Origin: an uncultured virus (IMG/VR IMGVR_UViG_3300022926_000008)
Lineage: Duplodnaviria; Heunggongvirae; Uroviricota; Caudoviricetes
Reading direction: 5' to 3' (one strand)
Length of the DNA stretch: 64,000 nt
IMG/VR virus record: IMGVR_UViG_3300022926_000008
Part shown: positions 1 to 61,820 of the stretch, piece by piece
Layout: each line of letters starts with the position of its first letter
Position numbering within the stretch: position 1 is the first letter of the stretch
Made by a program: the position numbers and the translations under genes
The notes under the pieces: generated by a model
What the model was told of the DNA's origin: nothing
The model's input: only the letters and a program-made list of their open reading frames with translations
Database searches by the model: none

Positions 1-1
1 A

Positions 2-106
2 CCACACTTCCCACCGCACTTCCCCCCACACTTCCCACCGCACTTCCCACCGCACTTCCCACCTCACTTCCCACCGCACTTCCCTCCACACTTCCCGCCG
101 TTCTTC
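2..106 (+). repeat. 12-bp coding tandem repeat (Pro-Pro-His-Phe)
   Basis: ccN ccN cac ttc units varying at synonymous positions; last unit PPFF. Confidence 0.95.
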
Positions 107-160
107 CCAAGATTCTACAGGCACGGATTTGGACAGAAGTTCGAAACAGATGAGAACTAA
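2..160 (+). CDS. 3' end of a PPHF-repeat protein (5' truncated by the window; absent from the ORF track)
   Basis: Frame 2 reads PHF-(PPHF)7-PPFF-PRFYRHGFGQKFETDEN*, stop at 158-160, followed by a terminator. The tail matches that of 11169..12578. Confidence 0.85.
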   Translation, partial: PHFPPHFPPHFPPHFPPHFPPHFPPHFPPHFPPFFPRFYRHGFGQKFETDEN

Positions 161-170
161 ATAACTAAAT

Positions 171-204
171 ACAAAAGGCCCGTCCATTGCGACGGGCCTT
201 TTGT
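171..204. terminator. Intrinsic terminator, probably bidirectional
   Basis: acaaaaggcccgtc-cattgc-gacgggccttttgt perfect inverted repeat with A and T tails. Confidence 0.9.
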
Positions 205-206
205 TA

Positions 207-215
207 TGGTATAAT
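207..215 (+). promoter_or_regulatory. Extended -10 promoter, leaderless start
   Basis: TGGTATAAT, 6 nt, then ATG at 222. Confidence 0.75.
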
Positions 216-221
216 TTTTGT

Positions 222-968
222 ATGGGTATAGAACATAATAATCCTTGGCTGACCAAAGACAGGTCAGAAACTTCTCATAATAGGATGGCTACGAGGACAA
301 TGTCCAGCGGCATTGTAGTAGAAAATCCAGCACTAGGCATTAATGTTTACAAAAATGTTTTTAGCCCAAAAGATGTAGAATACATCATTAGTACTCTGGA
401 GAAAAACCTTTCTAATGGCTCTGAGCATTCATGGAATGGTGCTTTGGTTACTGAGGGGCATGAAAAGATCTCATATGCTAGAGACTGTGTAGATTTTAAG
501 ATTGGTCATAAATGTTTTGGGCCAGAAAATGACAGCAATAGAGAACTCTATGCCGTGCACCAGCTCTCTTTTGATAAAATTCACCCACATGTTAGTGACT
601 ATGGCACATACTGGGGGGTAGGTATGAATTACTATGAAGTTTTTAACTATGTAAAGTATGAGGGAACAGGAAAACATTTTGCTGTACACGCAGATCACGG
701 ACCAGCATATGTAACTACTGTATCTGCTGTTGCATACTTAAACGATAACTATACTGGCGGAGAGCTTACATTCCCTAGGTTTGGCCTAACAATAAAGCCA
801 GAAGTTGGCGACCTTGTGGTTTTCCCGTCTACCTTTATTTATGAACACCAGTCAGAGCCAATTATTGATGGTACGAAGTATTCTATTGTTGTCATGACAG
901 ACTATAACGATAGGGGCGGAGCAAAGTATTTTGACTACACCCAAGCAAAACAAGAGCTGATATATTAG
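222..968 (+). CDS. Fe(II)/2OG oxygenase, prolyl 4-hydroxylase-like
   Basis: HAD...YLNDNYTGGELTFP...HQSEPIIDGTKYS, with Lys at the 2OG-binding position. Start moved to ATG 222, after the promoter. Confidence 0.88.
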   Translation: MGIEHNNPWLTKDRSETSHNRMATRTMSSGIVVENPALGINVYKNVFSPKDVEYIISTLEKNLSNGSEHSWNGALVTEGHEKISYARDCVDFKIGHKCFGPENDSNRELYAVHQLSFDKIHPHVSDYGTYWGVGMNYYEVFNYVKYEGTGKHFAVHADHGPAYVTTVSAVAYLNDNYTGGELTFPRFGLTIKPEVGDLVVFPSTFIYEHQSEPIIDGTKYSIVVMTDYNDRGGAKYFDYTQAKQELIY

Positions 969-977
969 TGAGGAATT

Positions 978-1691
978 ATGGAAGAGCTTAAAGAAATGGT
1001 TGAGCATGAAGAAAGGCTTCATAACTGGTACAACATTGAAGAGCAAACGTGGAGTTCTATAACAGACCTTGGCAATGGAATTCTTGTCTACCACGATGCT
1101 TTGCCAGAAAGTATAAAGATTATTGACAGGCTAGAAGAAGTTATGCAGGAGCCAGATAATGGCTTTGAGTATCAGAAGGCCATGGTGGGCTATGGTATGA
1201 CGATGCCAGAGTATCGAGACTGCTTTGATATCAAGTTTAAAAAGTCAGATATTGAGCACGATACATCAGAATCATCCTTAAAATTGCAGTCTTTATGGGA
1301 AGATGTTTATTTTAGAAAGCTTCAGGCAGTAAAGGATTACACAAAAAGACACAATGTTGGAGAGTTGCGTTATTGGGAGGCAATTAACTTTATTAAGTAT
1401 GGTCCAGGGCAACACTTCCAGGAGCACACAGACCACGGGTATAGCTATAATTGCGTAGTGTCATTGGTTGGTTATGTTAACGATAATTATACTGGTGGAG
1501 AAATCTTCTTTAGGCTTCAGAATGTTCACTATAAGCCAAAGGCTGGAGATCTCTTTATTTTTCCGTCTAACTATATGTACCCACACCGTGCAATGCCAGT
1601 AGTTGATGGCACAAAGTATTCTCTTGTGACAATGCTAGATTATTCTAATAAGTTTCACAGTGAAAAGTTCATGGAAGAGAGTGGCGATTAG
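978..1691 (+). CDS. Fe(II)/2OG oxygenase, prolyl 4-hydroxylase-like
   Basis: HTD...YVNDNYTGGEIFF...HRAMPVVDGTKYS; GAGGA RBS; paralog of the previous gene. Confidence 0.88.
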   Translation: MEELKEMVEHEERLHNWYNIEEQTWSSITDLGNGILVYHDALPESIKIIDRLEEVMQEPDNGFEYQKAMVGYGMTMPEYRDCFDIKFKKSDIEHDTSESSLKLQSLWEDVYFRKLQAVKDYTKRHNVGELRYWEAINFIKYGPGQHFQEHTDHGYSYNCVVSLVGYVNDNYTGGEIFFRLQNVHYKPKAGDLFIFPSNYMYPHRAMPVVDGTKYSLVTMLDYSNKFHSEKFMEESGD

Positions 1692-1693
1692 TT

Positions 1694-2404
1694 TTGCAGA
1701 TTAATGCATATAGCAGAGGCATAGCCTCTATTGACCAACTTCCACTACAGAGAGACTGGATGGACTTCACTTTTGACAGACATGCATACCAGTGTTTTCC
1801 AGTTTCTTTATCGAACAGGCTTGGGTGGGGGATATCACTTCCAGAAGATATTACTTTTATTTGGGATGGGGTAAACGATTCTACTTCGGATCACGTAAAG
1901 ACACTCAAGGGTGAAAGCTATACGCATCCAGGCAGAGGAAACAGGACAATTAGTTTTTATACTGGAATAACCTTTGACGCACCAGATAAAGAAGACCTTT
2001 CTTTACTTACAATGCCAGTTCCAAATCAGTTTATTAGGGGTGCTCAGTGTATGTCTACTATTATTAGCCCCTCAGTTTTGCAGGGAGAGCTTCCAATAGC
2101 ATGGATGATAACAGAGCCAAATATTGAAATTACCATTCCAGCTGGCACCCCAATTGCTGCAATCATCCCTATTTCAACAGCGGGTATTCAAGAGCACGAG
2201 CTGTCGGTTACAGCAGGAGACCCACCATACATGCGTGACGAAACTTGGAAGACTAAGATGAGAGATCGTGGTGATGTCAGTATGGAGCTGAATATGGCTG
2301 GGACATGGACGCATTTTTATAGAGATGCAGTAGACCATAATGGCAACCCAGATGGAAAGCACGAATCTAAAAAGATTGTAATGAGGGTAAGGCATGAGCA
2401 GTAA
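1694..2404 (+). CDS. DUF6065-like protein
   Basis: RDWMD...HAYQCFPVSLSNRLGW and IPAGTPIAAIIP motifs, recognised from memory as DUF6065-like. Confidence 0.6.
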   Translation: MQINAYSRGIASIDQLPLQRDWMDFTFDRHAYQCFPVSLSNRLGWGISLPEDITFIWDGVNDSTSDHVKTLKGESYTHPGRGNRTISFYTGITFDAPDKEDLSLLTMPVPNQFIRGAQCMSTIISPSVLQGELPIAWMITEPNIEITIPAGTPIAAIIPISTAGIQEHELSVTAGDPPYMRDETWKTKMRDRGDVSMELNMAGTWTHFYRDAVDHNGNPDGKHESKKIVMRVRHEQ

Positions 2405-3128
2405 AAAGATTACATTTATCGCTGACTCCTATGCAGTTGATCCAAATGATAATGACACAGACCCAGGACCTATTGGGAAAACAATACCAGAATGGTATCG
2501 CCAAGCTCCAAGGTACTATAAGGACCCAGCAGGAAATAACTATAAAGACCCACAGGGCAACAACATCCACAGCTGGAAGTCATGCCCAGTAGTATATGAT
2601 GGCTTAGAAACTGGCTATGCCTTTAAAACACCATGTGACCTAGTGTTTACTAGAGACGATAAAGGTATCCCTCATGTACAGATTACAGATGAAAGATTCC
2701 CAAACTTTGTACAAGAAAGACCACCTATGCCTGGATTCCAGGTGCCATGGGGGTATGATCAGTTTCATTTTGCTTGGTATGGAGAGTGGGCAGTAAAACT
2801 TCCGTCAGGATATAGTGCATTGTATATACAACCAATGAATAGATATGAGCTTCCTTTTCAAACTACTAGCGGAATCATAGACAGCGATAACGTTAATCTA
2901 TTTGGCACAGTTCCTTTTTTCCTTGCTAAAGACTACCAAGGTGTATTGCCAAAGGGCACACCATTCTTGCAGATTATTCCTTTTAAAAGAGAAAGCTGGA
3001 AGTCAGACTATGAATATCCAGATCATGAAAAGATTTGGAATGACAATATGGCAAACATTGAGAAATATCGCACACCCAAAGGCGGGGTATATCTTAATGA
3101 AGTTTGGCAAAGAAGAAAGTATGAATAG
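2394..3128 (+). CDS. Conserved phage protein, distantly DUF6065-like
   Basis: IPEWY...KSCP...TGY...PMNRYELPFQTTSGIIDSD...KGTPFLQIIPFKRESW; shares GTPxxxIIP with the preceding gene. Confidence 0.55.
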   Translation: MSSKKITFIADSYAVDPNDNDTDPGPIGKTIPEWYRQAPRYYKDPAGNNYKDPQGNNIHSWKSCPVVYDGLETGYAFKTPCDLVFTRDDKGIPHVQITDERFPNFVQERPPMPGFQVPWGYDQFHFAWYGEWAVKLPSGYSALYIQPMNRYELPFQTTSGIIDSDNVNLFGTVPFFLAKDYQGVLPKGTPFLQIIPFKRESWKSDYEYPDHEKIWNDNMANIEKYRTPKGGVYLNEVWQRRKYE

Positions 3129-3151
3129 CAAGTTTGTGATAAAATATTATC

Positions 3152-3874
3152 ATGGATAATACAAAAAGAGAGTACAAAAGTGGAGACGAACTTTGGGAAG
3201 ATCCATTTTATAGATTTTTAGACGATCCCAAGTCAATTACTCCATCGAAATATTTTGGCACATCTGCAGATAATATCGTAGAGATTGAGGATTTTCTTAC
3301 AGAAAATGAGCTTATTTTTCTGAATAATTTTATTCGAAACAATACGCATTGGGACTATACAGAAGATCAGTGGAATGAAGAGGGCGTGCAAATCTATGAT
3401 GCCTCCTACTGGAAAGATCGAGTAGCAACATGGAATACAATCTATGATGCAAATCCAGAAGTGCTTTCCGTTATCTCCAATATTGTCCTAAGGCTTAAGC
3501 CAATTGTTGAAGAGTTTTTTAATGTTACCTGCTTCCCCACAAAGCCTGCAATGGTTAGATGGACTCCAGGAACATTCCAGATACCGCATGCTGATAAAGA
3601 GTTGCATATCGGAGATGATGCTGGCAAGCCAAATGCATTCCCGTGGTATGACCTAGCTGGGCTGTTCTATATTAATGATGACTATGAGGGTGGCGAGCTA
3701 TACTTTCCAAACCAAGGGATTCAGTTTAAGCCAAAGAGGGGTGCTGCATACTTCTTCCCAGGAGACATGCACTACATCCACGGCATTACAGAAATTACTT
3801 CTGGAGAAAGATATACTTGCCCGTTCTTTTGGACCATTACTGAGCTAGGAGAGTTTGATGCCAAGTCAGATTAA
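3152..3874 (+). CDS. Fe(II)/2OG oxygenase
   Basis: PHAD...YINDDYEGGELYFP...HGITEITSGERY; TGATAAAAT 6 nt upstream of the ATG. Confidence 0.9.
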   Translation: MDNTKREYKSGDELWEDPFYRFLDDPKSITPSKYFGTSADNIVEIEDFLTENELIFLNNFIRNNTHWDYTEDQWNEEGVQIYDASYWKDRVATWNTIYDANPEVLSVISNIVLRLKPIVEEFFNVTCFPTKPAMVRWTPGTFQIPHADKELHIGDDAGKPNAFPWYDLAGLFYINDDYEGGELYFPNQGIQFKPKRGAAYFFPGDMHYIHGITEITSGERYTCPFFWTITELGEFDAKSD

Positions 3875-4802
3875 GGGCGGCACGTGGGCAATTGATCCAG
3901 TAGATTCACAAGAGCTAGACAAGGTAGAATTTCAAGAGTTTTATCCAAGAGTTCACATATATAAAAATCTTTTGCCAAATGCTGCAAGACTTGTAGAAAT
4001 ACTTAAAGAGTCTGGCAAAGATAGAGCATCTTCGTACTATTTTAACAAGTGGGATAAGTGGTTCGTTTTTGGAGAAACTATTGGCGGTATTGAGTACAAT
4101 CCAATTTATCCAGAACTAGTTGATCAGGATCGTAAAGCAGAAGAAGAGGCTATAGTTCAAGAGCTAACCGACGCTTTTCGCTATGCCACACAACATTATA
4201 TGCAATACCATGGAGTTACCAGAGAAGAGAACTGGACAACCATGGGCCCATCGATCTGCAAGTATGACTCCGAAATGGAGCACTGTAGAATAGACTATCT
4301 AAGCATGAAGTATCACACAGACTATGACTATATTCGTGGCGATGAGCCAGGAGATAAGTTTGCAATTACCTGTACCATGTATTTAAATGATAGCTATGAG
4401 GGTGGAGAAATGTGGTTTGCCCTAGGTCATCAGCAAGATTCTTTTGGGGAAGAGCCACTCCAAGACGAAGAAATTCATGTGTATAAGCCACAGGCAGGCG
4501 ATGTCTTGGTTTTCCCATCTGGTCATCCAGATATCCTATCCGAAGAAAGCACATACTTTCATGGTGTAAGTAGAACAAGCAAGTCTGAGGAAAAGCCAGA
4601 TGACAAGTATTTTATCAGATCATATCATCTAATACCGTTTGAGGGTACGCCAGAGTGGAATGCAGGTCTAGAAAAATATGGCCCAGAGGTTTGGGAAGCA
4701 ATGGAGCTTGAGCGTATAAAGGCCAGAGTCAAAACCCACGAAGAGCTGCAAATGCTCAAGACAAGAACTGCGGCTAGCGATAAGGAGTGCGGACTTCACT
4801 AA
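3858..4802 (+). CDS. Fe(II)/2OG oxygenase
   Basis: YHTDY...YLNDSYEGGE...FPSGHPD...FHGV...KYF. Confidence 0.85.
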   Translation: MPSQIKGGTWAIDPVDSQELDKVEFQEFYPRVHIYKNLLPNAARLVEILKESGKDRASSYYFNKWDKWFVFGETIGGIEYNPIYPELVDQDRKAEEEAIVQELTDAFRYATQHYMQYHGVTREENWTTMGPSICKYDSEMEHCRIDYLSMKYHTDYDYIRGDEPGDKFAITCTMYLNDSYEGGEMWFALGHQQDSFGEEPLQDEEIHVYKPQAGDVLVFPSGHPDILSEESTYFHGVSRTSKSEEKPDDKYFIRSYHLIPFEGTPEWNAGLEKYGPEVWEAMELERIKARVKTHEELQMLKTRTAASDKECGLH

Positions 4803-5689
4803 TGGAAGATCTAGAATACTATGATATACCAGAAGCACCACTGATCAGAGTTTATAAAAACCTCCTGCCAAAGTGGGAAGACCTTCTTGACGTTCTAATT
4901 AAATCCGAACAAAATCCAGAAGATTTTATTTATTATAACCAGTGGGAAACCTGGAATGATTTGGGTACAAACTTAGCAGACGGTTTGCCAAACCATAATG
5001 CTGGCTGGCTATTGAAAACAGAAGAAGATCCTAAAAAAAGAAGAGAGCTAGAGCTAGTTGATATGATAACAGAGGCTGCACGAAGAGGATTCGAGCATTA
5101 CTCTGAAGATCACGGCATCGATCTTTCTTTAGATTGGCATGCAGATGGTCCAGCTTATTACAAGTATGACCACACATTACCAGCACCGAATATTTCTAGC
5201 CCAGAGTTTAACATGAACTACCACACAGACTATACTTTTTCAATGCAAGATACCCCTGGATTAAAGCCAGTAGTGACATGCACAATGTATATTAATGATA
5301 ATTTTAATGGTGGAGAGATGGTTTTTAATTTAGAAAAAAGATTATCTAGGCCATACCTCAGAAGACCAGAGCAGTTTGGTCCAGACGAGAGTTTAGATGT
5401 TCGTGGTGTGGTCTATAGGCCAGAAGCTGGAGACCTTGTTGTTTTCCCATCTGGACATCCAGATTTCATGCTCGATCAGGACTATTACTATTTTCATTCA
5501 GTTAATAGAGTAACTGGTGGAGATAAATACTTTGTTAGCATATTCTACTCCTTGCTTTCTGAGGGGTCTGATGAATGGCGAGCAAACATGGAAGAGTATG
5601 GCAAGGATTTGTGGTTTTGGCTAGAAAAAAGACGAGTCGTAAATTCTGGATACAAGAAAAAGAAAATTGAGGACCCAGATGGATACTAA
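4802..5689 (+). CDS. Fe(II)/2OG oxygenase
   Basis: YHTDY...YINDNFNGGE...FPSGHPD...FHSVNRVTGGDKYF; TAATG overlap with its upstream paralog. Confidence 0.85.
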   Translation: MEDLEYYDIPEAPLIRVYKNLLPKWEDLLDVLIKSEQNPEDFIYYNQWETWNDLGTNLADGLPNHNAGWLLKTEEDPKKRRELELVDMITEAARRGFEHYSEDHGIDLSLDWHADGPAYYKYDHTLPAPNISSPEFNMNYHTDYTFSMQDTPGLKPVVTCTMYINDNFNGGEMVFNLEKRLSRPYLRRPEQFGPDESLDVRGVVYRPEAGDLVVFPSGHPDFMLDQDYYYFHSVNRVTGGDKYFVSIFYSLLSEGSDEWRANMEEYGKDLWFWLEKRRVVNSGYKKKKIEDPDGY

Positions 5690-6323
5690 TAATAAGACCA
5701 CGTACCTGATACCAGAGCTCGATCCAGAGTCGTTTGTATTTTTTAAGGATGAAGAGATTACAGATGGAAAAGGAAGGCTGGGCGTAGACCGCAACAGAAT
5801 CTTAGAGATTCCACACTTTATTACAGAGTCAACAGCAGAATCTTTGGTAACTTATTTTAAAGAAGAAGATAGGTGGGGAGAAACTGCATTTAATGGATCC
5901 CGTGGTGCACCCTTGCAAGCTGGCTCTGTTTTGCCATCACATTTCGGTATGCCAGACAGCATCTTTGAAGATATCAATGCCAAGCTTAAGCATGCAGTGG
6001 CAACAGTCTATAACAAGGATGTGATTCCAACATCTATTCATGCTCAAAAATGGGATGTCGGTTCATCGGCCAACCCGCACTCAGATAACTCAGATTTTGA
6101 TGGAAACCCCACAGAAGGATTTGACAATCTAAAGTATGTGGGAATCCTATACCTAAATAGCGATTATGCTGGTGGTAATCTATACTTTCCAGATCACGGA
6201 ATTGATATTCACCCTAATGCAGGGTCTATGTATATTTTTAGTGGAGGCGTAGAGAATATCCATGGAGTAACAGAGATTACTTCTGGTACTCGATACTCTA
6301 TAGTATCTTTTTGGGACTTCTAA
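5679..6323 (+). CDS. Fe(II)/2OG oxygenase
   Basis: PHSD...YLNSDYAGGNLYFP...HGVTEITSGTRY. Confidence 0.9.
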   Translation: MDTNNKTTYLIPELDPESFVFFKDEEITDGKGRLGVDRNRILEIPHFITESTAESLVTYFKEEDRWGETAFNGSRGAPLQAGSVLPSHFGMPDSIFEDINAKLKHAVATVYNKDVIPTSIHAQKWDVGSSANPHSDNSDFDGNPTEGFDNLKYVGILYLNSDYAGGNLYFPDHGIDIHPNAGSMYIFSGGVENIHGVTEITSGTRYSIVSFWDF

Positions 6324-7609
6324 TGGGCACTAAGATAAACGAAACTTACTTTGGCAATCGAGAGTATGTCATGCATACAGACAATGTTGCCGAAGCCCCA
6401 GATTTTGCTTCTGATGAGGATGTCCGTGGATTTATTAGTTTTATTGATAGTGAAGATATTTCTTGTGCTCATCACACACACGCAGAACATTTTCCAAATG
6501 TTGACGAAAACTATATTGTATTAACACCAGATTGTATAGATACCAATTCAGATAAGACAGCAGAAGATACCAGCACCCTGGATGGTATTTCTGCATTCTT
6601 CCATAAGCTTTTGGATGCGGCAAACAGATATACCTTTAAGCCTATGAAGCTAAAAAAGGTTGTGATGCATAGGTATATTCATGGTGCTTCTGCTCCCCCA
6701 CATGCAGATGTTTTCCCTTTGGCAACACTCTTATATCTTAATGACGATTATGATGGCGGCGAACTATATTTCCCCAATCAGAATTTTGAAATTAAGCCAG
6801 TGGCAAAGTCCTTGCTAGTTTTTAAAGGAGGCGGTGAAAATCTTCACGGAGTTCGTCAAGTCACAGGTGATATAGATCACATAAGGCCAAGGTATGTTAT
6901 TGTTGCATTTTGGGATTATGAAAGCGAAATAGATCAAGCTAGGTTCTCTGAAATAGCAGATGCTACTGAACACCAGTGGAGAGAAGATGATGGGCCAGAG
7001 GCTGGAACAATTATGTCTAGGTATGGAACAAAGGCCAAGCTTAGATTTGCAAACAAGCTGCCTGTATTAGATATTAAAGATTTTATTACAAGTAATGATG
7101 CTGTAGAAATTATTAGATTCCTAGAGCTAAACCAACGAGAAGACGGTGATGAGTGCTGGTCTCCCGTATGCTTTAGAGAGTATTGGGAAAAACTAAACCC
7201 AGATAGTGATAAGAAGCCTATTTTTACAGATGATACAGATGAAAACACTTTGCCTAATATAAACTTAAAGGTTAAAGAGCACGTAGAATTTTTCTTGCAA
7301 AAGCGGGTGGCATTTTCTAAGTTTAAAGGTCATCGATCAAAGGTTGGCTCTTCTGCACCACCACACAATCACCCAGCAGCAATTGCTGTTGCAATTGTAG
7401 TGCTAGATGATAAGTTTTCTGGCGGGGAGGTCTTTGTTCCTAATTATGATATTGAGTTTAGTTTAGAAGCTGGCCATTTGTATATTTTTGAAGAAAACGA
7501 TATATCTAAGCATGGGTTTAAGAAGGTGCTTGAGGGCAGGCGTTTAGCATTAGTATCGCACTGGCAAGATCTAGACAGCCCATATGATTGGGCTGGAGTA
7601 GACCATTAA
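6323..7609 (+). CDS. Tandem two-domain Fe(II)/2OG oxygenase
   Basis: Domain 1 APPHAD...GGELYFP...HGV...RY; domain 2 APPHNH...GGEVFVP...HGFKKVLEGRR. Confidence 0.85.
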   Translation: MGTKINETYFGNREYVMHTDNVAEAPDFASDEDVRGFISFIDSEDISCAHHTHAEHFPNVDENYIVLTPDCIDTNSDKTAEDTSTLDGISAFFHKLLDAANRYTFKPMKLKKVVMHRYIHGASAPPHADVFPLATLLYLNDDYDGGELYFPNQNFEIKPVAKSLLVFKGGGENLHGVRQVTGDIDHIRPRYVIVAFWDYESEIDQARFSEIADATEHQWREDDGPEAGTIMSRYGTKAKLRFANKLPVLDIKDFITSNDAVEIIRFLELNQREDGDECWSPVCFREYWEKLNPDSDKKPIFTDDTDENTLPNINLKVKEHVEFFLQKRVAFSKFKGHRSKVGSSAPPHNHPAAIAVAIVVLDDKFSGGEVFVPNYDIEFSLEAGHLYIFEENDISKHGFKKVLEGRRLALVSHWQDLDSPYDWAGVDH

Positions 7610-7644
7610 AGTTTGGTATAATAGTATCAAGATTTGAGGAGATC

Positions 7645-8379
7645 ATGGAAAAGGTATATCATCACCCTAAAATTGTTGAGGTCAAGAACTTCCTTGATCA
7701 GCAATACTGCTTAGATGTTATTGAGTTTTTTGAAGGTAACGGAGAAGACGAGGATAACTGGAACCCCATCTGCTTTCCTAGCGTGCTTGGCGTAAACGTA
7801 GGAGAGCCAAAGTCTACTGGAAAAATTTCTGTAGAAGATATGGGGAAGATTCGCGACAAGATGCACACAGTGGTTGAAGAAGTGCTGGGGATTGAAGTTA
7901 AGAATGTAACCATGAGCGGACACAAGTACCCTACTGGTTCTTGGGCAGAGCCACACTCAGACAGCTCAGAGCTAGACGGTACCCCAAATGCATGGCAAAT
8001 GAATAAATATGCCTGTATTCTATATCTAAATGATGCATATACTGGCGGAGAGATTTACTTTCCGCAGCATGATATCGACATTGCTCCAGGTGCAGCAAGC
8101 CTAGTAGTTTTTGAAGGAAGCCATGAGTTTCTTCACGGTGTCCGCAAAATTAATAGTGGAGACAGGTTTACTATTCTAGCCTTCTGGGATGACAAAGATG
8201 CTGTATACGATAAAGACTTTTTAGATAATAAGGTTGAAGAGCAAAGAACAGCACTAGACTATGTTGAAAGCTCTCATGACTATGGTGAGTACAATGGGCG
8301 TACGTTTGGAAAGCAAAAGCCAGAAGACTTGTATTCTATCCTAGCAGATTCTGATAAGCAAGACGACCAGACTCATTAA
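7645..8379 (+). CDS. Fe(II)/2OG oxygenase
   Basis: PHSD...YLNDAYTGGEIYFP...HGVRKINSGDRF; TGGTATAAT at 7614 and GAGGAG RBS before ATG 7645. Confidence 0.9.
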   Translation: MEKVYHHPKIVEVKNFLDQQYCLDVIEFFEGNGEDEDNWNPICFPSVLGVNVGEPKSTGKISVEDMGKIRDKMHTVVEEVLGIEVKNVTMSGHKYPTGSWAEPHSDSSELDGTPNAWQMNKYACILYLNDAYTGGEIYFPQHDIDIAPGAASLVVFEGSHEFLHGVRKINSGDRFTILAFWDDKDAVYDKDFLDNKVEEQRTALDYVESSHDYGEYNGRTFGKQKPEDLYSILADSDKQDDQTH

Positions 8380-8995
8380 TTACAAATGATGGCAGGCTGT
8401 ACCTTATTGGCCCCAAGCCAGGTGCCTTAACGCCATGCCTGTACAGTTCTCCATCTGGAAAAATGAGAATTGAGTTCTTGGGGGGCTTAAGTTCAATATC
8501 AAGGTTTGGGAAGATAAGCTCTCCCTCAGAATAATCATCATTTAGATACCCAATAACTGCATATTGCACGTACGGATCTCCTTCACTATCTACATGCTCT
8601 ACTAGCACAGATCCTTCATAGTGTCTATGTATTGTATGGATGCCTGTAAAATATAGTCCTTTTAGTTGCATAAAAATTTCATCTATACGGTTATTTAATT
8701 TTTCTGAATGTTGTTTGGGAACAGCGATTGCATTGTCTGACCAAAAGTCAGAGTACTCAACCAGCCCCTCCGATATTAAATTATCTAAATCTTCTCTACC
8801 ATATTTAACCTTGGCAAGCTGTATCTGGCTATTTCGGTAGTCCTCTTCCCAATCAGCTTGGGTAGCACTATCAATAATTTTCCATAAATCGTTAGCCTCA
8901 TCTTGGTTAATAAAATTTTCCAATAAAATAATTTTAGGCCCTACCTCTTTGTATTCTATTCCAAGATCAAAAAGTGAAAGTAGTATTTGTTGCAT
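8336..8995 (-). CDS. Fe(II)/2OG oxygenase
   Basis: EHVD...YLNDDYSEGELIFP...HGVKAPGLGPIRY. Confidence 0.88.
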   Translation of the reverse strand: MQQILLSLFDLGIEYKEVGPKIILLENFINQDEANDLWKIIDSATQADWEEDYRNSQIQLAKVKYGREDLDNLISEGLVEYSDFWSDNAIAVPKQHSEKLNNRIDEIFMQLKGLYFTGIHTIHRHYEGSVLVEHVDSEGDPYVQYAVIGYLNDDYSEGELIFPNLDIELKPPKNSILIFPDGELYRHGVKAPGLGPIRYSLPSFVINESGRLAYQNLLG

Positions 8996-9645
8996 TAGGA
9001 TAGTCTCCTTACAAAAGATGGAAGAACATATCTTAGTGGACCATTGCCAGGAGGCTTAACCCCATGAAGGTATCTCTCCCCACTAGGAAAAATCACGGCT
9101 GATTTTGCTGCTGGCTTGAGCTCAATACCCATTTCTGGAAAGACTAACTCTCCATCCGCATAGTCGTCATTGATATAGATAATTACTGCATATTCTATAG
9201 ATGGGTCAGAATGATTGTCCACATGCTCAATTAGTGGTGCCCCCTCATATTGACGCTGAATCGTGCCAATTCCAGGGAACTTGATAGAGGGGTCAAAATC
9301 AAAAATGTCCTGTATTCTTTCGGAGAGTGGTTCAGAAATATAATATGGGAGTTCAAGATTTTTATCAATCCAGTGCGTAGTTATTTCAATTAAGCCTTCT
9401 TTGACAAGATTGTCAATGTCTGCCCTTTGGTATTTTCTTTCAGCGAGGGCCTCTACCCCACGCATATAATGTGTTTCCCAGTCATCTTCTGATGCAGTTC
9501 CTATTACTTTTAATACTTCGTGCACTTCAGACTCCGAAATAAAGTTACGTATTACGTATATTTCGCTTCTTGGATTTCCGTCATTGCTTATAGCCTCTTC
9601 ATATTCATATCCAAGTTTTACCAAAGAAGACTCTACCTTGTTCAT
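8995..9645 (-). CDS. Fe(II)/2OG oxygenase
   Basis: EHVD...YINDDYADGELVFP...HGVKPPGNGPLRY; paralog of 8336..8995. Confidence 0.88.
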   Translation of the reverse strand: MNKVESSLVKLGYEYEEAISNDGNPRSEIYVIRNFISESEVHEVLKVIGTASEDDWETHYMRGVEALAERKYQRADIDNLVKEGLIEITTHWIDKNLELPYYISEPLSERIQDIFDFDPSIKFPGIGTIQRQYEGAPLIEHVDNHSDPSIEYAVIIYINDDYADGELVFPEMGIELKPAAKSAVIFPSGERYLHGVKPPGNGPLRYVLPSFVRRLS

Positions 9646-9651
9646 TGGATA

Positions 9652-9681
9652 ATTATATCATGACATGCCCTATGCTATAAT
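9652..9681. promoter_or_regulatory. Back-to-back divergent extended -10 promoters
   Basis: Minus TGATATAAT (9660-9652) + 6 nt + ATG 9645; plus TGCTATAAT (9673-9681) + 6 nt + ATG 9688. Confidence 0.75.
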
Positions 9682-9687
9682 ATTCTC

Positions 9688-10284
9688 ATGAAGATAAACC
9701 AGATTGAAAACTTCACCCTGTTGCCATATATTAACAAAGTTATTAACCAATATTCTCATAAGCTGATTCATGTAGATGAGCGTCCTGGATTTTATGAAGA
9801 TGTCCATACTAGTAGAGAAATTTTAAGGCCAGTCCCAATTGAAAATAAAGATGATATTAGATTTGAAGGCCACGAAACTGATAGTGAAAAAGAAGCTATC
9901 TTTATTTTGGATAATTGGATTTATCTTGCTAAAAAAGAAATTGAGAAACATTATGGTGTAGGACCGCTAAACAAATTTGAAGGTGGCATGGTTAAGCTTG
10001 TTAAGGGGTCTTTTAATGGCCCACACTCAGATATGTATAACATGGATGGCACAAGATATGATGGCGATGGCAGAGGCGATAGCCTAGAGTATTCTGCACT
10101 GCTATACCTATCGGAGTACGGGGTTGACTTTACTGGCGGCGAGCTATACTTTCCAAATCAAGATTTTACCGTTGAGCCACAAAGAGGCAAGTTGGTATTC
10201 TTTCAGGGAGATCTTGAACACATTCACGAAGTTAAAGAAGTTACCAGTGGGGAAAGATATGCCCTGGTAATGTTTTTTGGCTAA
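9688..10284 (+). CDS. Fe(II)/2OG oxygenase
   Basis: PHSD...DFTGGELYFP...HEVKEVTSGERY. Confidence 0.9.
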   Translation: MKINQIENFTLLPYINKVINQYSHKLIHVDERPGFYEDVHTSREILRPVPIENKDDIRFEGHETDSEKEAIFILDNWIYLAKKEIEKHYGVGPLNKFEGGMVKLVKGSFNGPHSDMYNMDGTRYDGDGRGDSLEYSALLYLSEYGVDFTGGELYFPNQDFTVEPQRGKLVFFQGDLEHIHEVKEVTSGERYALVMFFG

Positions 10285-11126
10285 TCTCTTATCCAGTAAT
10301 TTCTGGGTATATAGTTGATGAGTTTGTCATAGGCGTGTGTTGGTGATCCAGACTTCCACTTTTCTATATCATATTTTATTAGTTTCAGCAAAAAGTCAGC
10401 ACTTTCAGAGTGACCTTCTTTAAGCATCATCCAGGATCCAGCATAGTGTATAAAGTATGAAGAGTGTCGCGACTCCCTTAGAGGCTCGTCCATAAAAGAC
10501 ATTCTGTTAAACAAATAGGGCAGCTCAAATATTGGCAAGCTGTTTGTAAAAATATTAATATTTATTCCTGTTTGTTCATAAAAGTTATCATCATAAAAAT
10601 TGCTAGAGGATTTGAGCATTGCTTCGTGCCCCCTAGACATTACAAAAACACCAGTGTTATAATACTTTCCGCTCCACTTGCTGATGTCCACATTGTACTT
10701 TTTGCACCAATCTTTTATTAGGCCAGCCCTATCGTCTTTGTGAAAAAAATTTTCTTCGCTAAAGATTCCAATTTTATCATTTGGCACCATGTCAAATAGA
10801 TTCGGGGCATCGTCTCTAATAATAATGTCTGTATCAATGTGGAGTATTCTCTCATAATTCTCCAGTAGCTCCACTATGTTAAGTTTATTATATGCACCAA
10901 ATGATGGCTGCGTAAAGTCTCCACTAGTTTTTTTAACTACTGGTTGGTTAGACAAAAGTTTTGATGTAGAGCCATCTGGGTGGTGAATATAGTACTGCTC
11001 ATGATCATAGACAATGTAATCTAAGCCATGCCTAAGAGCATAGGACATCTGTGTTGGATGTGTTAGTTTGGCCATATTGCCATGTCTTTTTCCAATTAAG
11101 ACGGTAACGATAGCATTTTTGACCAT
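10281..11126 (-). CDS. GT-A fold glycosyltransferase, GT8-like
   Basis: YNKL...ILHIDTDII (DxD)...YYNTGVFV...EQTGIN...IHYAG. Start reassigned to MVKNAIVTV, downstream of minus-strand TGGTATAAT. Confidence 0.82.
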   Translation of the reverse strand: MVKNAIVTVLIGKRHGNMAKLTHPTQMSYALRHGLDYIVYDHEQYYIHHPDGSTSKLLSNQPVVKKTSGDFTQPSFGAYNKLNIVELLENYERILHIDTDIIIRDDAPNLFDMVPNDKIGIFSEENFFHKDDRAGLIKDWCKKYNVDISKWSGKYYNTGVFVMSRGHEAMLKSSSNFYDDNFYEQTGININIFTNSLPIFELPYLFNRMSFMDEPLRESRHSSYFIHYAGSWMMLKEGHSESADFLLKLIKYDIEKWKSGSPTHAYDKLINYIPRNYWIRD

Positions 11127-11135
11127 AGTTTCTAC

Positions 11136-11162
11136 ATTATACCAGAGACTTTGTGGTAAAAT
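11136..11162. promoter_or_regulatory. Divergent extended -10 promoters for the glycosyltransferase and the PPHF protein
   Basis: Minus TGGTATAAT (11144-11136); plus TGGTAAAAT (11154-11162) + 6 nt + ATG 11169. Confidence 0.7.
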
Positions 11163-11168
11163 TATTAT

Positions 11169-12578
11169 ATGGCTTACCATCTCCGCTACCGAGGCATTGC
11201 TGATTCCTATAGGCCAACTCAGGCTATCGGCGGAACTGTTGTTACCGCTATGGTAGACAATGTCTTGCACAACGTTCACTATTTTACATCTAGCGGCACC
11301 TTTGAGGTAACCCTGCCTGGCTCTGCTGATCAAGAAATTAAGTATCTTGTTATAGGTGGAGGAGGATCTGGTGGAGATGCAGATAACGAAACCGAGGCGG
11401 GAGCGGGCGGAGGAGCTGGAGGTTTTCGATCTGGCACTATTACCCTACCAACTGATTCATCTTCTGTATCAATTTCCGTAATTGTTGGAGCAGGTGGCCA
11501 GCCAAGCACATCGGCATCATGTAATGTGGGTGTTAGTGGTGCTGCATCTTCGATTACCTCCTCAGAGCTTTCTCTTAGCATTGCAGCTGCGGGCGGCGGC
11601 GGTGGCGGAAATGGTCAGGGTGGGGCAGGGCTTGATGGAGGCTCTGGTGGTGGATCAAATTTCCGAACAACTACTGTTGGGCAAGGAAATGTTCCAGCAA
11701 CTAATCCAGCCCAAGGTTACAATGGTGCCATAGGCACTGGAAATATCGGAGGTGGAGGCGGTGGTGCTGGTGCCGCAGCCAGTGGCCAATCGGGCGGCAT
11801 AGGGGCATCTTCTAGCATAGGAGGGCCATCAGCTACCTACGCTATTGGCGGTGACGGTGGCGACTTTAATACTAGCGTCTCTCCAAATTTTGGAATATAC
11901 GGTTTCTCCCCAGCTGAATTTGGATCTGGTGGAGGCGGTGCTGGTGCACGTGCCGAAAAGGCTGGATTTGCAGACCAAGCAATGAATCCAGGAATTGTAG
12001 GTCAAAATGGTGTTGTTATTTTTGCATACCCAATCTCCCCAACGACAGGATTTTCTAACCCACAAGTTCCAGACAAGCCAGCTAAACCAACGGCTACTCC
12101 AAACATTCTTTTTGACACGGTAAAGTGGTCAGCAGTTAATGATAATGGATCTCAAATTATTGAGTACGGCTGGGAGGCCAGCGATGGAAACGAGGGGACA
12201 ACTACTTCCCTCGGTGTAACCGTGCCACAAGTTGAAAACACATCTCAGACGTATAGGGTTAGAGCACGTAACTCAGTAGGATGGGGCCCATGGTCGGACG
12301 ACTCTTCTCAAGTTACTACCGTTGCACCGTTCTTCCCGTTCTTCCCGTTCTTCCCACACTTCCCACCCCACTTCCCCCCGCACTTCCCCCCACACTTTCC
12401 TCCACACTTCCCTCCACACTTCCCACCGCATTTCCCGCCACACTTTCCTCCACATTTCCCTCCACATTTCCCTCCACATTTCCCACCTCACTTCCCACCA
12501 AGATTTAGCTATTCTCCAAGATTCTACAGGCACACTTTTGGAAAAAAGGTAGAAGGCCAAGAGGAACAAGATGGCTAA
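11169..12578 (+). CDS. Gly-rich + fibronectin type III + (PPHF)n protein, putative virion surface protein
   Basis: YLVIGGGGSGG...GAGGGAGG Gly-rich domain; FN3 (VKWSAVNDNGSQI...YRVRARNSVGWGPWS); (PFF)3-PHF-(PPHF)11-PPRF; PRFYRHTFGKK tail. Confidence 0.8.
   Translation: MAYHLRYRGIADSYRPTQAIGGTVVTAMVDNVLHNVHYFTSSGTFEVTLPGSADQEIKYLVIGGGGSGGDADNETEAGAGGGAGGFRSGTITLPTDSSSVSISVIVGAGGQPSTSASCNVGVSGAASSITSSELSLSIAAAGGGGGGNGQGGAGLDGGSGGGSNFRTTTVGQGNVPATNPAQGYNGAIGTGNIGGGGGGAGAAASGQSGGIGASSSIGGPSATYAIGGDGGDFNTSVSPNFGIYGFSPAEFGSGGGGAGARAEKAGFADQAMNPGIVGQNGVVIFAYPISPTTGFSNPQVPDKPAKPTATPNILFDTVKWSAVNDNGSQIIEYGWEASDGNEGTTTSLGVTVPQVENTSQTYRVRARNSVGWGPWSDDSSQVTTVAPFFPFFPFFPHFPPHFPPHFPPHFPPHFPPHFPPHFPPHFPPHFPPHFPPHFPPHFPPRFSYSPRFYRHTFGKKVEGQEEQDG
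12327..12506 (+). repeat. Coding tandem repeat (PFF)3-PHF-(PPHF)11-PPRF
   Basis: 9-bp then 12-bp units with synonymous third-position variation. Confidence 0.95.
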
Positions 12579-16071: not shown

Positions 16072-16089
16072 TGTGGTATACTAGTGGCT

Positions 16090-16470
16090 ATGGAAAACAA
16101 AAAACCACGCTTTCCTGGTCAAGTCGGTGACACGAAGGTCCAGGTTATAGAAGAAAACTTCTCTAATTTTGGAACTTACGTATGGCACAAGGCCAACGGA
16201 AAAGCATTTACTGACGGAAATGGAAATGCCCTGTCTATCGAAGCCATGAAGGGCGACCTTACTAGAGTTCAAGAACTAGAAAATGCTGCTAGATATTGGG
16301 GGTGCCCAGAAGGAACCGCAAAGTTCTACCCAAACATGCGTAAGATCTCTGAAGAAGAGCACAGCGAGCAGCTTGACAGAATGAATCAGGGCCTTATTCC
16401 AAGCATGAATGACCTTGGTGCAGTTATTGCAGCTAAGAATACTCTAGAAGCTTACGGAGACGAGGGATAA
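16090..16470 (+). CDS. Hypothetical protein
   Basis: TGGTATACT + 7 nt + ATG; TAATG-coupled to the portal. Confidence 0.6.
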   Translation: MENKKPRFPGQVGDTKVQVIEENFSNFGTYVWHKANGKAFTDGNGNALSIEAMKGDLTRVQELENAARYWGCPEGTAKFYPNMRKISEEEHSEQLDRMNQGLIPSMNDLGAVIAAKNTLEAYGDEG

Positions 16471-61534: not shown

Positions 61535-61606
61535 TGGCCACTAGCTCAACGGCAGAGCAGAGAGCTGTTAACTCTAAGGTTCCTGGTTCGAATCCAGGGT
61601 GGCCAG
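61535..61606 (+). tRNA. tRNA-Asn(GTT)
   Basis: Acceptor TGGCCAC/GTGGCCA, anticodon loop CT-GTT-AA, GGTTCGAATCC; CCA not encoded. Confidence 0.92.
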
Positions 61607-61817: not shown

Positions 61818-61820
61818 CGA

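What the first reader, a model, noticed from the sequence alone, without database searches (positions are those of the whole stretch)
2..12578. Candidate phage protein-modification system: 11 Fe/2OG hydroxylases plus a glycosyltransferase flanked by two (PPHF)n proteins
Seen: a 12.5-kb block holding only 11 Fe(II)/2OG oxygenase genes (12 domains), two DUF6065-like genes and one GT8-like glycosyltransferase, bounded at both ends by genes with long Pro-Pro-His-Phe tracts. Established: the HxD...YxNDxYxGGE...H...R/K pattern is that of the prolyl-hydroxylase-like 2OG clan, which hydroxylates Pro-rich peptides, and hydroxyproline is the sugar acceptor in plant and algal extensin-type glycoproteins. 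Inference: the PPHF tracts are the dedicated substrates. Different paralogs may hydroxylate different positions (Pro1, Pro2, possibly His or Phe), followed by glycosylation. The product would be an extensin-like modified virion appendage or a RiPP-like multi-core peptide.
Basis: partly seen in the sequence, partly recalled or inferred. Interest (0 to 1): 0.93.

Follow-up and report, generated by a model that had tools for sequence, protein, structure and literature searches.

The report
Phage hydroxylase array with Pro-His-Phe tails
An uncultured salt-marsh phage carries eleven collagen-hydroxylase-like enzyme genes between two fibre-region proteins that end in long Pro-Pro-His-Phe repeats; such repeats and enzymes are neighbours in many other phages, so the repeats are the likeliest, still untested, target of these abundant but unexplained viral enzymes.

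Summary
Window 201..10284 holds 11 genes that pass Pfam's 2OG-FeII_Oxy_3 cut-off, with 12 domains, plus two DUF6065-type genes and one GT8 gene. On each side lies an FN3 protein ending in a (P)PHF tract. The oxygenases are closest to protein prolyl 3- and 4-hydroxylases, by profile for all 12 domains and by fold for ox2.

The link between tract and enzymes holds in both directions:
- Of 65 viral loci found with a (PPHF)x3 DNA pattern, 57 carry such oxygenases directly downstream.
- Of 80 loci found with an ox2-type oxygenase, all 30 with at least 8 kb of upstream DNA carry a Pro/aromatic tract gene upstream.
- 32 unrelated viral loci carry neither.

The constant set is a PP-x-F tract (x = H, F, Y or W), an ox2-type and an ox3-type oxygenase, and a dUTPase-fold DUF6065 protein. 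It occurs in unrelated phage backbones with different N-terminal domains (FN3, PASTA, Gly-rich). I read it as a dedicated hydroxylation system for fibre-associated tails (about 0.6). No chemistry is shown.

The glycosylation step is weak, because GT8 accompanies the system in only two phage types. The idea that each paralog serves one position could not be tested, and nothing supports the RiPP reading.

This scan noted the same kind of system earlier on seven other genomes. I found no paper on it.

The parts
2..157 (+). C-terminal 52 residues of a 292-aa FN3 protein: (PPHF) tract plus the tail PRFYRHGFGQKFETDEN. The window start cuts the gene.
   Evidence: translation. One search gives the full gene in the near-identical record G001, just after a tail-fibre-like ORF. 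One search gives fn3, E 3.8e-10.
171..215 (+). Strong hairpin (14-bp stem, 8 G-C pairs) followed by T's, overlapping a promoter-like site (TTGCGA-17-TATAAT with TG). It separates tract gene 1 from the array.
   Evidence: The tool lists the hairpin on the - strand; the + strand reading is mine, from the sequence.
201..968 (+). ox1, a 2OG-Fe(II) oxygenase of the ox1/ox2 class
   Evidence: PF13640, E 9.4e-12. (HxD...H...K). (community 0).
978..1691 (+). ox2, a core oxygenase class found next to tracts in all lineages. The model has a prolyl-4-hydroxylase-like fold.
   Evidence: (alignment A2; pLDDT 80; top matches PPHD, PHD2, vCPH, CrP4H), and the reverse test.
1694..2404 (+). DUF6065 protein (duf1) with a dUTPase-like fold and a conserved HAYxC motif
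   Evidence: PF19541, E 3.7e-21. (H30 invariant, C34 nearly invariant). (dUTPases, E about 3e-4, TM 0.5-0.66 of target).
2394..3128 (+). DUF6065-like paralog (duf2)
   Evidence: phrog_7084, E 2.1e-33. (18% identity to duf1 in the alignment). (relatives in haloarchaeal viruses, away from oxygenases).
3152..3874 (+). ox3, the second core oxygenase class. It is the first gene after the tract gene in the small-protein lineages.
   Evidence: (community 1, 57 of 61 loci).
3855..4802 (+). ox4
4787..5689 (+). ox5, a paralog of ox4. It was seen only in the His-rich sub-lineage.
5667..6323 (+). ox6
6311..7609 (+). ox7, a two-domain oxygenase. The second domain lacks the Asp of the HxD motif.
   Evidence: one Pfam stretch. 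(two domains aligned). (community 20, 7 loci, all with His tracts).
7588..8379 (+). ox8
8336..8995 (-). ox9
8995..9645 (-). ox10
9688..10284 (+). ox11
10281..11126 (-). GT8-family glycosyltransferase, an occasional accessory. The ORF stays open up to 11333; the ATG at 11126 gives the 281-aa form shared by its homologues.
   Evidence: PF01501, 33 bits, cut-off 24.3. (281-aa homologues, 51-98% identity). (same position in L165; 32 other viral homologues have no oxygenase and no tract nearby).
11169..12578 (+). 469-aa Gly_rich_2 + FN3-like + tract protein. The tract lies at about 12324-12500 and is followed by the tail PRFSYSPRFYRHTFGKKVEGQEEQDG.
   Evidence: PF21722. (phrog_2295 and minor tail families). 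(tract and codons). (its C-terminal FN3 + tract + tail module is homologous to that of the 292-aa protein, E 1e-18).

Best explanation
The block is a phage-encoded protein-tailoring system.

**Proposed substrates.** Two fibre-region proteins, of 292 aa and 469 aa, end in a PP-x-F polymer, here mostly PPHF.

**Proposed mechanism.**
- The prolyl-hydroxylase-like Fe(II)/2OG oxygenases encoded between the two genes hydroxylate this polymer in the infected cell's cytoplasm, before or during virion assembly.
- The core of the system is the tract, an ox2-type enzyme, an ox3-type enzyme and a dUTPase-fold DUF6065 protein. The other eight oxygenases are lineage-specific additions.
- The tract holds only Pro, His and Phe, so hydroxylation would most likely fall on the prolines.
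- The result would be a stiffer, more polar polyproline-type rod or sticky tip on a fibre-associated protein.
- GT8 may add sugar in this phage.

**What is shown.** Gene content, intact catalytic motifs in 11 of 12 domains, a P4H-like profile and fold, the linkage of tract and enzymes, and selection on the tract at the protein level.

**What is inferred.** That the tract is the substrate, which residues are hit, that the proteins sit in the virion, and what the modification is for.
For: **1. Enzyme class.**
- 11 of 11 genes pass the PF13640 cut-off.
- 11 of 12 domains keep HxD...H and 12 of 12 keep the basic residue.
- A profile of the 12 domains hits, among solved structures: collagen prolyl 3-hydroxylase 1 (E 3.8e-18), B. 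anthracis P4H (3.4e-13), PHD2 (7.6e-9), algal P4H (2.4e-6), chlorovirus vCPH (5.3e-5) and lysyl hydroxylase LH3 (6.9e-5).
- For the ox2 model (pLDDT 80), Foldseek lists protein prolyl hydroxylases almost throughout: 41 of the 42 rows shown, the exception being a 'putative oxygenase' from Shewanella (3dkq). The best E-value is 5.4e-9, with TM 0.5-0.6.

**2. Forward linkage.**
- 57 of the 65 viral loci found with the (PPHF)x3 DNA pattern hold at least one gene matching an HMM of the window's oxygenases, and 56 hold at least two.
- In the maps the order is: large fibre gene, tract gene, oxygenases, on one strand.
- Of the 8 misses, 4 are cut by a contig end on the array side (L018, L042, L067, L073). 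The other 4 are not this kind of protein (L050, L056, L069, L066).

**3. Reverse linkage.**
- Of the 80 viral loci found with the ox2-type alignment, 63 have a Pro/aromatic tract ORF upstream on the same strand.
- All 30 loci with at least 8 kb of upstream DNA have one.
- Of the 17 without, 16 have less than 3.4 kb upstream. The last (L084) has a shorter tract that my filter missed.

**4. Background.** 32 unrelated viral loci (GT8 homologues L166-L197) have no oxygenase hits and no tracts.

**5. Independence from the phage backbone.**
- The small-protein lineages share no portal or head genes with the window.
- Their tracts hang on other N-terminal domains: PASTA (E 8e-10) or an unassigned ~90-aa domain, against FN3 and Gly-rich here.
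- They still keep an ox3-like then an ox2-like gene right after the tract gene.

**6. Core set.** Of 61 dereplicated tract genes with at least 6 kb downstream, 55 have the ox1/2 class, 57 the ox3 class, 56 a DUF6065 class, and 51 all three.

**7. Selection on the peptide.** The 11 identical PPHF units are written with 8 different 12-mers, and all differences are synonymous.

**8. Both window tract proteins share one homologous FN3 + tract + tail module**.

**9. The system is essentially viral.** There are only 3 hits in the one-genome-per-species collection, all on MAG contigs, and 2 of them carry tracts.
Against: - No chemistry exists for any member.
- Tandem oxygenase arrays also occur without tracts. 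Syn9 gp41-gp54 lies after fibre genes, but gp40 has no tract. The PPxF x3 pattern is absent from both cyanophage records searched, Syn9 and S-RIM4. The array type as such therefore does not need a tract.
- The tract gene is always the last gene of a fibre module, so part of the adjacency could reflect a shared insertion hot-spot.
- A terminator-like hairpin separates tract gene 1 from the array.
- In the His-free sister lineage a collagen-repeat protein lies just after the array in 6 loci. It is an alternative prolyl-hydroxylase substrate there. The window itself has no run of six or more G-x-y units.
- duf2-like proteins occur in haloarchaeal viruses and in one cyanophage beside nucleotide-metabolism genes, with no oxygenase annotated in the stretches shown.
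- No known prolyl hydroxylase is recorded, to my recollection, as acting on PP-aromatic-Phe repeats.
- The loci are not all independent: several come from the same or near-identical contigs.
Confidence: 0.6

Rival explanations
1. The array makes or modifies a small molecule, such as a secondary metabolite, or changes host metabolism by consuming 2OG or repairing DNA. The tract proteins are ordinary fibre parts that merely lie next to a hot-spot for such cargo genes.
For: - Iyer et al. 2010 proposed secondary-metabolite synthesis for the Syn9 array of ten dioxygenases, two halogenases and a dUTPase-fold protein (PMC2938197, passages read).
- Sullivan et al. 2010 proposed 2OG modulation or DNA repair for cyanophage 2OG oxygenases (PMC3037559, passages read).
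- Syn9 has an array but no tract.
- Relatives' arrays also hold TauD-family oxygenases, glutathione-peroxidase-like and NAD-binding proteins and a tryptophan halogenase, all common in small-molecule pathways.
Against: - Pfam finds no peptide synthetase, precursor-making enzyme or exporter in the block.
- Eleven divergent paralogs (18-33% identity to ox1) are not needed just to burn 2OG.
- The profile's matches among solved structures are mostly protein hydroxylases, and neither list names a nucleic-acid or small-molecule oxygenase.
- The tract travels with ox2/ox3-type genes across unrelated backbones and N-terminal domains. A mere hot-spot does not predict that.
Confidence: 0.15
2. The oxygenases do modify phage structural proteins, but their targets are other fibre parts: the large fibre proteins, the Gly-rich domain, or collagen-like fibres in relatives. 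The PP-x-F tract would be an unmodified spacer or docking element.
For: - The arrays always lie in or beside fibre modules.
- A collagen-repeat protein follows the array in 6 loci of the sister lineage.
- Syn9 gp39, beside its array, shows a Gly-rich stretch like that of the window's 469-aa protein, as I read the translation against the sequence. No alignment or family search was run on it.
Against: - The window has no collagen-like run.
- The large fibre proteins and N-terminal domains differ between lineages, while the tract is the one constant partner.
- The tract is the most proline-rich sequence of the neighbourhood, at 37-52% Pro.
Confidence: 0.12
3. RiPP-like system. The N-terminal domain acts as a leader, and the repeat is a multi-core precursor that is oxidised and then cut into small peptides, which are released.
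For: - In the other lineages the tract proteins are small (130-225 aa), with an N-terminal domain and a purely repetitive C-terminus.
- Many tailoring enzymes are encoded beside them.
Against: - No protease, cyclase, recognition element or exporter is found in the window block or among the 35 recurrent accessory gene groups.
- In the window the tracts are fused to FN3 and Gly-rich domains typical of phage fibre proteins.
- The tract has no obvious cleavage sites between units.
Confidence: 0.05

Closest known systems
Chlorella virus PBCV-1 prolyl 4-hydroxylase (vCPH, PDB 5c5t/5c5u) and that virus's proline-rich repeat ORFs
   Same: A virus encodes a P4H-type enzyme and also proteins with short proline-rich tandem repeats that serve as its substrates. 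vCPH is among the nearest solved structures (rank 5) and a profile hit (E 5.3e-5).
   Different: - PBCV-1 is a giant virus of algae with, as I recall, one enzyme and (PAPK)-type repeats. That recollection is of Eriksson et al. 1999, which I saw only as a citation in PMC9301287.
- Here a tailed phage has 11 enzymes in tandem and a PP-aromatic-Phe repeat without charged residues.
- It also has a fixed gene order next to fibre genes and a DUF6065 partner.
- No biochemistry exists here.
Tandem dioxygenase array of Synechococcus phage Syn9, gp41-gp54 (Iyer, Abhiman, de Souza, Aravind 2010, PMC2938197)
   Same: - Many divergent 2OG oxygenases in tandem, plus a dUTPase-fold protein with a conserved Cys, placed directly after tail-fibre genes.
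- A tryptophan halogenase occurs in a relative of the present system (L021).
   Different: - Syn9 has no PP-x-F tract gene.
- Its oxygenases are only 25-33% identical to ox2.
- It includes a JmjC/MINA-type member and two halogenases, which the window lacks.
- The published proposal was secondary-metabolite synthesis, not modification of a phage protein.
Bacterial neighbourhoods of dioxygenases with collagen-like or tail-collar proteins and sulfotransferases (Iyer et al. 2010)
   Same: Hydroxylases are encoded beside a repetitive, proline-containing structural protein that is proposed as their substrate (passage read).
   Different: - Those systems are cellular, use G-x-y collagen repeats or tail-collar domains, and are coupled to sulfation.
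- Here the system is viral, uses a PP-x-F repeat, and has no sulfotransferase.
Plant and algal extensin-type hydroxyproline O-glycosylation
   Same: An algal P4H with a (Ser-Pro)5 peptide (3gze) is among the structural neighbours.
   Different: - No Ser-Pro(n) motif is present.
- The only glycosyltransferase is a GT8, which I do not recall as a Hyp-glycosylating family.
- That GT8 accompanies the system in just two phage types.

Membership tests
Fe(II)/2OG oxygenases, prolyl-hydroxylase-like clade (Pfam PF13640 2OG-FeII_Oxy_3) | Match to the family profile above the curated cut-off | tested here: met
   11 of 11 genes score 29.5-51.4 bits against a cut-off of 27.
Fe(II)/2OG oxygenases, prolyl-hydroxylase-like clade (Pfam PF13640 2OG-FeII_Oxy_3) | HxD...H iron triad and a basic residue for the 2OG C5 carboxylate | tested here: met
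   Triad present in 11 of 12 domains; the second domain of 6311-7609 lacks the Asp. K/R present in 12 of 12.
Fe(II)/2OG oxygenases, prolyl-hydroxylase-like clade (Pfam PF13640 2OG-FeII_Oxy_3) | Double-stranded beta-helix fold nearest to protein prolyl hydroxylases | tested here: met
   The ox2 model has pLDDT 80.3. Its top matches are PPHD, PHD2, vCPH, CrP4H, C-P4H-II and BaP4H, with E down to 5.4e-9. Only ox2 was folded. The profile of all 12 domains hits P3H1, BaP4H and PHD2.
Fe(II)/2OG oxygenases, prolyl-hydroxylase-like clade (Pfam PF13640 2OG-FeII_Oxy_3) | Hydroxylation of peptidyl proline | not testable with these tools
   Needs an enzyme assay or mass spectrometry.
Viral P4H with virus-encoded Pro-rich repeat substrates (PBCV-1 type) | P4H-type enzyme and tandem Pro-rich repeat proteins in one viral genome | tested here: met
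Viral P4H with virus-encoded Pro-rich repeat substrates (PBCV-1 type) | The enzyme hydroxylates the repeat | not testable with these tools
   There is only gene-neighbourhood evidence.
Syn9-type tandem dioxygenase array | Tandem array of several divergent dioxygenases next to fibre genes | tested here: met
   11 genes at 18-33% identity to ox1. Fibre-like ORF upstream in G001.
Syn9-type tandem dioxygenase array | dUTPase-fold protein with a conserved cysteine | tested here: met
   DUF6065 model with pLDDT 80.6. Its nearest structures are dUTPases and dCTP deaminases (E about 3e-4, a weak match). H30 is invariant and C34 nearly invariant.
Syn9-type tandem dioxygenase array | JmjC/MINA-type member and tryptophan halogenases | tested here: not met
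   No such Pfam family among the window's 15 genes at E up to 0.01. A halogenase is present in the relative L021.
Extensin-type Hyp-O-glycosylation system | A glycosyltransferase that is a constant partner of the hydroxylases and the repeat | tested here: not met
   GT8 lies beside the array only in this phage type and in L165. 32 other viral GT8 homologues have no oxygenase and no tract nearby. There is no GT among the 35 recurrent accessory groups.
RiPP biosynthetic cluster | Precursor plus leader-removing protease and/or exporter or recognition element | tested here: not met
   None found by Pfam in the block or among the recurrent accessory groups.
Glycosyltransferase family 8 (PF01501) | Profile match above cut-off and a DxD motif | tested here: met
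   33 bits against a cut-off of 24.3. D98 and D100 are invariant in the 12-sequence alignment.

The most novel reading that the evidence does not exclude
The array builds a so far unknown protein material on phage fibres: a charge-free Pro/His/Phe polymer that carries several different oxidations. These would fall on both prolines and perhaps on the His or Phe side chains. In this His-rich lineage six extra oxygenases and a GT8 would do further work on it. The product would be a polar, metal-binding or adhesive tip used in host recognition. If so, the very abundant viral 'P4H' genes of aquatic viromes would be virion-tailoring enzymes and not metabolic genes.
Probability: 0.2. Interest if true: 0.9.

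Novelty: new variant of a known kind. Interest (0 to 1): 0.7.

Why it matters
**The open question.** Prolyl-4-hydroxylase-like and other 2OG oxygenase genes are among the most common 'auxiliary' genes of aquatic viruses.
- In one Baltic Sea survey P4HA occurred at 62% of water stations, and the authors wrote that its use by viruses 'remains cryptic' (PMC9301287, passages read).
- Earlier proposals were 2OG modulation or DNA repair (PMC3037559) and secondary metabolites (PMC2938197).

**What this adds.** A concrete candidate substrate is encoded next door and always travels with two enzyme classes. That turns the question into a bench experiment with a defined peptide and defined enzymes.

**If confirmed.** It would show that tailed phages tailor their own fibre-associated proteins with collagen-type chemistry, and it would define a new repeat polymer.

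**In print.** My searches found no paper on Pro-aromatic-Phe tracts beside phage oxygenases. Subscription journals are largely outside the library searched.

Tried and rejected
- **Co-folding.** ox2 (alignment A2) with residues 384-469 of the 469-aa protein gave no verdict: score 0.00 in two runs, and the controls were not run. This counts neither for nor against binding.
- **Isolated phages.**
  - The 12.6-kb block by megablast gave no match.
  - The 469-aa protein by tblastn gave no match.
  - Two small tract proteins by tblastn gave no match. The low-complexity filter may hide the repeats.
  - ox2 finds only 25-45% identical pieces, in cyanophage and unclassified marine-virus records.
- **Own genome.** The window's own assembly is not held, so I used the nearest record, G001.
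- **Earlier notes by place.** No notes exist for this genome.
- **Does any enzyme class track His in the tract?** His presence changes only 4 times on the ox3-type tree of 57 rows. That leaves 3-4 independent pairs and no power. The raw contrast is one evolutionary event: the His-free sisters L085-L094 lack ox5, ox7, ox8 and ox11 (a weak ox10-like gene, 42% identity, appears in L094), while the His-rich lineage has all eleven oxygenases.
- **Hint domain of relatives.** A single sequence against solved structures gave nothing. The profile gave only weak intein hits.
- **RNA libraries.** Contigs of four metatranscriptome runs cover the array and both tract genes at 99% identity or more. The tool warns that DNA can be present in such libraries and that contigs cannot show expression, so I do not count this as evidence of transcription.
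- **Paper search for 'PPHF', 'PPFF' and the like.** It returned only unrelated acronyms in the 15 papers listed of 260, and none of those 15 holds the doubled forms.
- **RiPP and extensin readings.** Considered and set aside; see the rival explanations and the membership test.
- **Louvain grouping of oxygenases.** It understates the ox2 class. L062, L122, L124 and L125 count as lacking it, yet they carry an ox2-like gene by BLAST or tblastn: L062 and the locus L015 on L122's contig, and L122, L124 and L125.

Full report
**What is in the window.** The ORFs fill positions 2..12578 without gaps.
- Pfam assigns PF13640 (2OG-FeII_Oxy_3) above its cut-off to 11 of 11 candidate genes.
- It assigns DUF6065 to 1694-2404, GT8 (PF01501) to 10281-11333(-), and Gly_rich_2 to the 469-aa product of 11169-12578.
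- Gene 2394-3128 has no Pfam family but is a DUF6065-like paralog (phrog_7084; alignment).
- In my alignment of 12 domains, 11 keep HxD...H and all 12 keep the K/R after the distal His. The second domain of 6311-7609 has lost the Asp.
- The first 157 bases read PHF(PPHF)7PPFFPRFYRHGFGQKFETDEN and then a stop.
- The second tract reads APFFPFFPFFPHF(PPHF)11PPRF.
- The 11 identical PPHF units use 8 different 12-mers, and all differences are synonymous. The repeat is therefore kept at the protein level. Tandem Repeats Finder scores the DNA arrays at 84-85% matches.

**Context.**
- The window's own assembly is not held. A near-identical 34-kb viral record, G001, shows the upstream protein whole. 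It is 292 aa, has an FN3 domain, and lies directly after a tail-fibre-like ORF.
- The two tract proteins share a homologous FN3 + tract + tail module (55% identity over 185 positions, E 1e-18).
- A strong hairpin and a promoter-like site lie between tract gene 1 and ox1.
- Downstream follow a 1166-aa protein of no family, then portal, protease and head genes.
- Further on lie a 2575-aa tape-measure-like protein, Pol III alpha, DnaB, primase, RecA, NrdI/E/F and a catalase-peroxidase.
- The phage has no close relative among isolated phages. Its portal is 44-47% identical to portals of Streptomyces phages.
- The host is not established. Hints of a Gram-positive host are the portal match, the class Ib reductase, and the PASTA domains on tract proteins of the other lineage.
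- Salt-marsh metagenome runs hold the block. They may be its source.

**Enzyme class.**
- A profile of the 12 domains hits collagen prolyl 3-hydroxylase 1 (E 3.8e-18), B. anthracis P4H (3.4e-13), PHD2, algal P4H, chlorovirus vCPH and lysyl hydroxylase LH3.
- An AlphaFold model of ox2 from a 12-sequence alignment (pLDDT 80) has protein prolyl hydroxylases in all but one (3dkq) of the Foldseek rows shown.
- The fold and profile say 'protein hydroxylase of the P4H kind'. They do not give the substrate.

**The key test, forward direction.**
- A degenerate DNA pattern for (PPHF)x3 found 65 stretches in the viral contig collection.
- With a local HMM of the window's oxygenases, 57 of 65 loci hold at least one such gene and 56 hold at least two.
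- In the maps the order is: large fibre gene, tract gene, oxygenases, on one strand.
- Of the 8 misses, 4 are cut by a contig end on the array side, and 4 are other kinds of ORF.

**The key test, reverse direction.**
- An alignment of ox2-type proteins (A2) retrieved 80 viral loci.
- 63 have a Pro/aromatic tract ORF upstream on the same strand, and all 30 with at least 8 kb upstream do.
- Of the 17 without, 16 have less than 3.4 kb upstream. L084 has a shorter tract that my filter missed.

**Background and caveat.**
- As background, 32 unrelated viral loci had no oxygenase hits and no tracts.
- The two sets of loci overlap in contigs, and several contigs are near-identical. The counts are therefore not counts of independent events.

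**What is constant and what varies.**
- The tract is PP-x-F with x = H, F, Y or W. His makes up 0 to 20% of tract residues, and the window is at the top of that range.
- The tract hangs on FN3, Gly-rich + FN3, PASTA or an unassigned ~90-aa domain.
- The small-protein lineages share no portal or head genes with the window. In them the large gene before the tract gene starts with an Mtd_N domain in 3 of 3 tested.
- They nevertheless keep an ox3-like and then an ox2-like gene, each about 40% identical to the window's, right after the tract gene.
- Among 61 dereplicated tract genes with at least 6 kb downstream, 55 have the ox1/2 class, 57 the ox3 class, 56 a DUF6065 class and 51 all three.
- Of the 10 others, 2 are the second tract copy, whose array lies on the other side. 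Another 4 do carry an ox2-like gene that the grouping placed elsewhere.
- Accessory genes differ by lineage: further PF13640 and PF13759 oxygenases, TauD-family oxygenases, glutathione-peroxidase-like and NAD-binding proteins, and a tryptophan halogenase.
- The window's sub-lineage keeps all eleven oxygenases in order at 40-87% identity. A His-free sister lineage has only ox1, ox2, duf1, duf2, ox3, ox4 and ox6.

**The sugar step.**
- GT8 lies between ox11 and the second tract gene here, in the near-identical contigs, and in one relative (L165, 48% identity, same position).
- Relatives L040 and L026 lack it. 32 more distant viral GT8 homologues have no oxygenase or tract nearby.
- No glycosyltransferase is among the 35 recurrent accessory groups.
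- GT8 is therefore an occasional accessory, not part of the core.

**DUF6065.**
- The model (pLDDT 80.6) is nearest to dUTPases and dCTP deaminases. The match is weak: E about 3e-4, TM 0.5-0.66 of the target.
- An HAYxC motif is conserved. This fits the 'dUTPase-fold protein with a conserved cysteine' that Iyer et al. saw in the Syn9 array.
- Its role is unknown.
- duf2-like proteins also occur in haloarchaeal viruses and one cyanophage beside nucleotide-metabolism genes.

**Comparison with what is known.**
- Syn9 has the published tandem array after its fibre genes but no tract. The array type can therefore exist without a tract, and the tract goes with the ox2/ox3 classes specifically.
- PBCV-1 offers the precedent of a viral P4H acting on the virus's own Pro-rich repeats. 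I recall this from Eriksson et al. 1999, which I saw only as a citation.
- Only 3 hits to the ox2 class occur in the one-genome-per-species collection. All are MAG contigs of three phyla, and 2 carry tracts. The system is essentially viral.

**Verdict.**
- The substrate idea is the best available reading (about 0.6), but it rests on gene neighbourhood, fold and selection only.
- The glycosylation and RiPP parts are weak.
- The same kind of system was noted earlier by this scan on seven other genomes. I re-tested the linkage, the fold and the dUTPase-fold claim myself.
- New here are the His-rich flavour, the GT8, the extra six oxygenases of this sub-lineage, and the Hint-like domains behind the tract in relatives.

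Noticed in passing
window 61949-64000 (+), preceded by tRNAs at 61535-61894: A phage-borne catalase-peroxidase (KatG type; NCBIfam PRK15061, E 4e-243), cut by the window end. It lies just after four tRNA genes (Asn, Trp, Asp, Arg). KatG seems unusual cargo for a phage. Whether it relates to the oxidative chemistry of the array 50 kb away is unknown.
   Followed up: partly
L016:8420-8902(-), L019:10205-10687(+), L022, L026, L040, L090 (relatives): In several relatives the tract is followed by a ~160-aa domain in place of the window's short tail. In five of the six aligned it starts with Cys right after ...PRFHAW and ends in ...VHNK; L090 differs at both ends. The profile hits mini-inteins and a bacterial intein-like domain only weakly (E 0.0026-0.07). 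Pfam gives Hint_2 below cut-off for L090. If it is an autoprocessing domain, the tract's C-terminus would be released or ligated.
   Followed up: partly
L017 versus L063 and L076 (near-identical contigs): Contigs whose oxygenases are 100% identical to the window's carry the upstream tract protein in two lengths, 273 aa and 295 aa. As printed, they differ only in the number and type of repeat units. Tract length is therefore polymorphic within one phage population.
   Followed up: partly
L036:9950-10450(-) and similar small tract proteins: In another phage lineage the tract hangs on a PASTA domain (E 8e-10). As I recall, this domain is known from peptidoglycan-binding proteins of Gram-positive bacteria. 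The large gene before it starts with an Mtd_N tropism-determinant domain.
   Followed up: partly
L087:10114-12699(+) and 5 further loci: In the His-free sister lineage an 862-aa collagen-repeat protein (PF01391, E 4e-61) lies just after the oxygenase array. It is a second possible prolyl-hydroxylase substrate there.
   Followed up: no
L079 (Halorubrum virus HRTV-2) 5851-6723; L078 (cyanophage S-RIM4) 11953-12747: Homologues of the window's duf2 (24-31% identity) occur in 49 haloarchaeal virus records and one cyanophage. In the two records I looked at they lie next to thymidylate synthase or ribonucleotide reductase genes, not oxygenases.
   Followed up: partly
L157 (Syn9) 9150-10328: Syn9 gp39, annotated as tail fibre assembly and lying two genes before the published dioxygenase array, shows Gly-rich stretches that look to me like the N-terminal part of the window's 469-aa tract protein. 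The printed translation also looks internally duplicated. No family search or alignment was run on it.
   Followed up: no
window 1-16100: Contigs from four salt-marsh metatranscriptome libraries cover the array and both tract genes at 99% identity or more. One example is a 2138-nt contig over 10983-13120. DNA carry-over cannot be excluded.
   Followed up: partly
window 53480-54514 and 60677-61492: A GMP reductase/IMPDH-family gene and a papain-like cysteine peptidase (PF00112, E 2.4e-6) lie among the replication and nucleotide genes.
   Followed up: no
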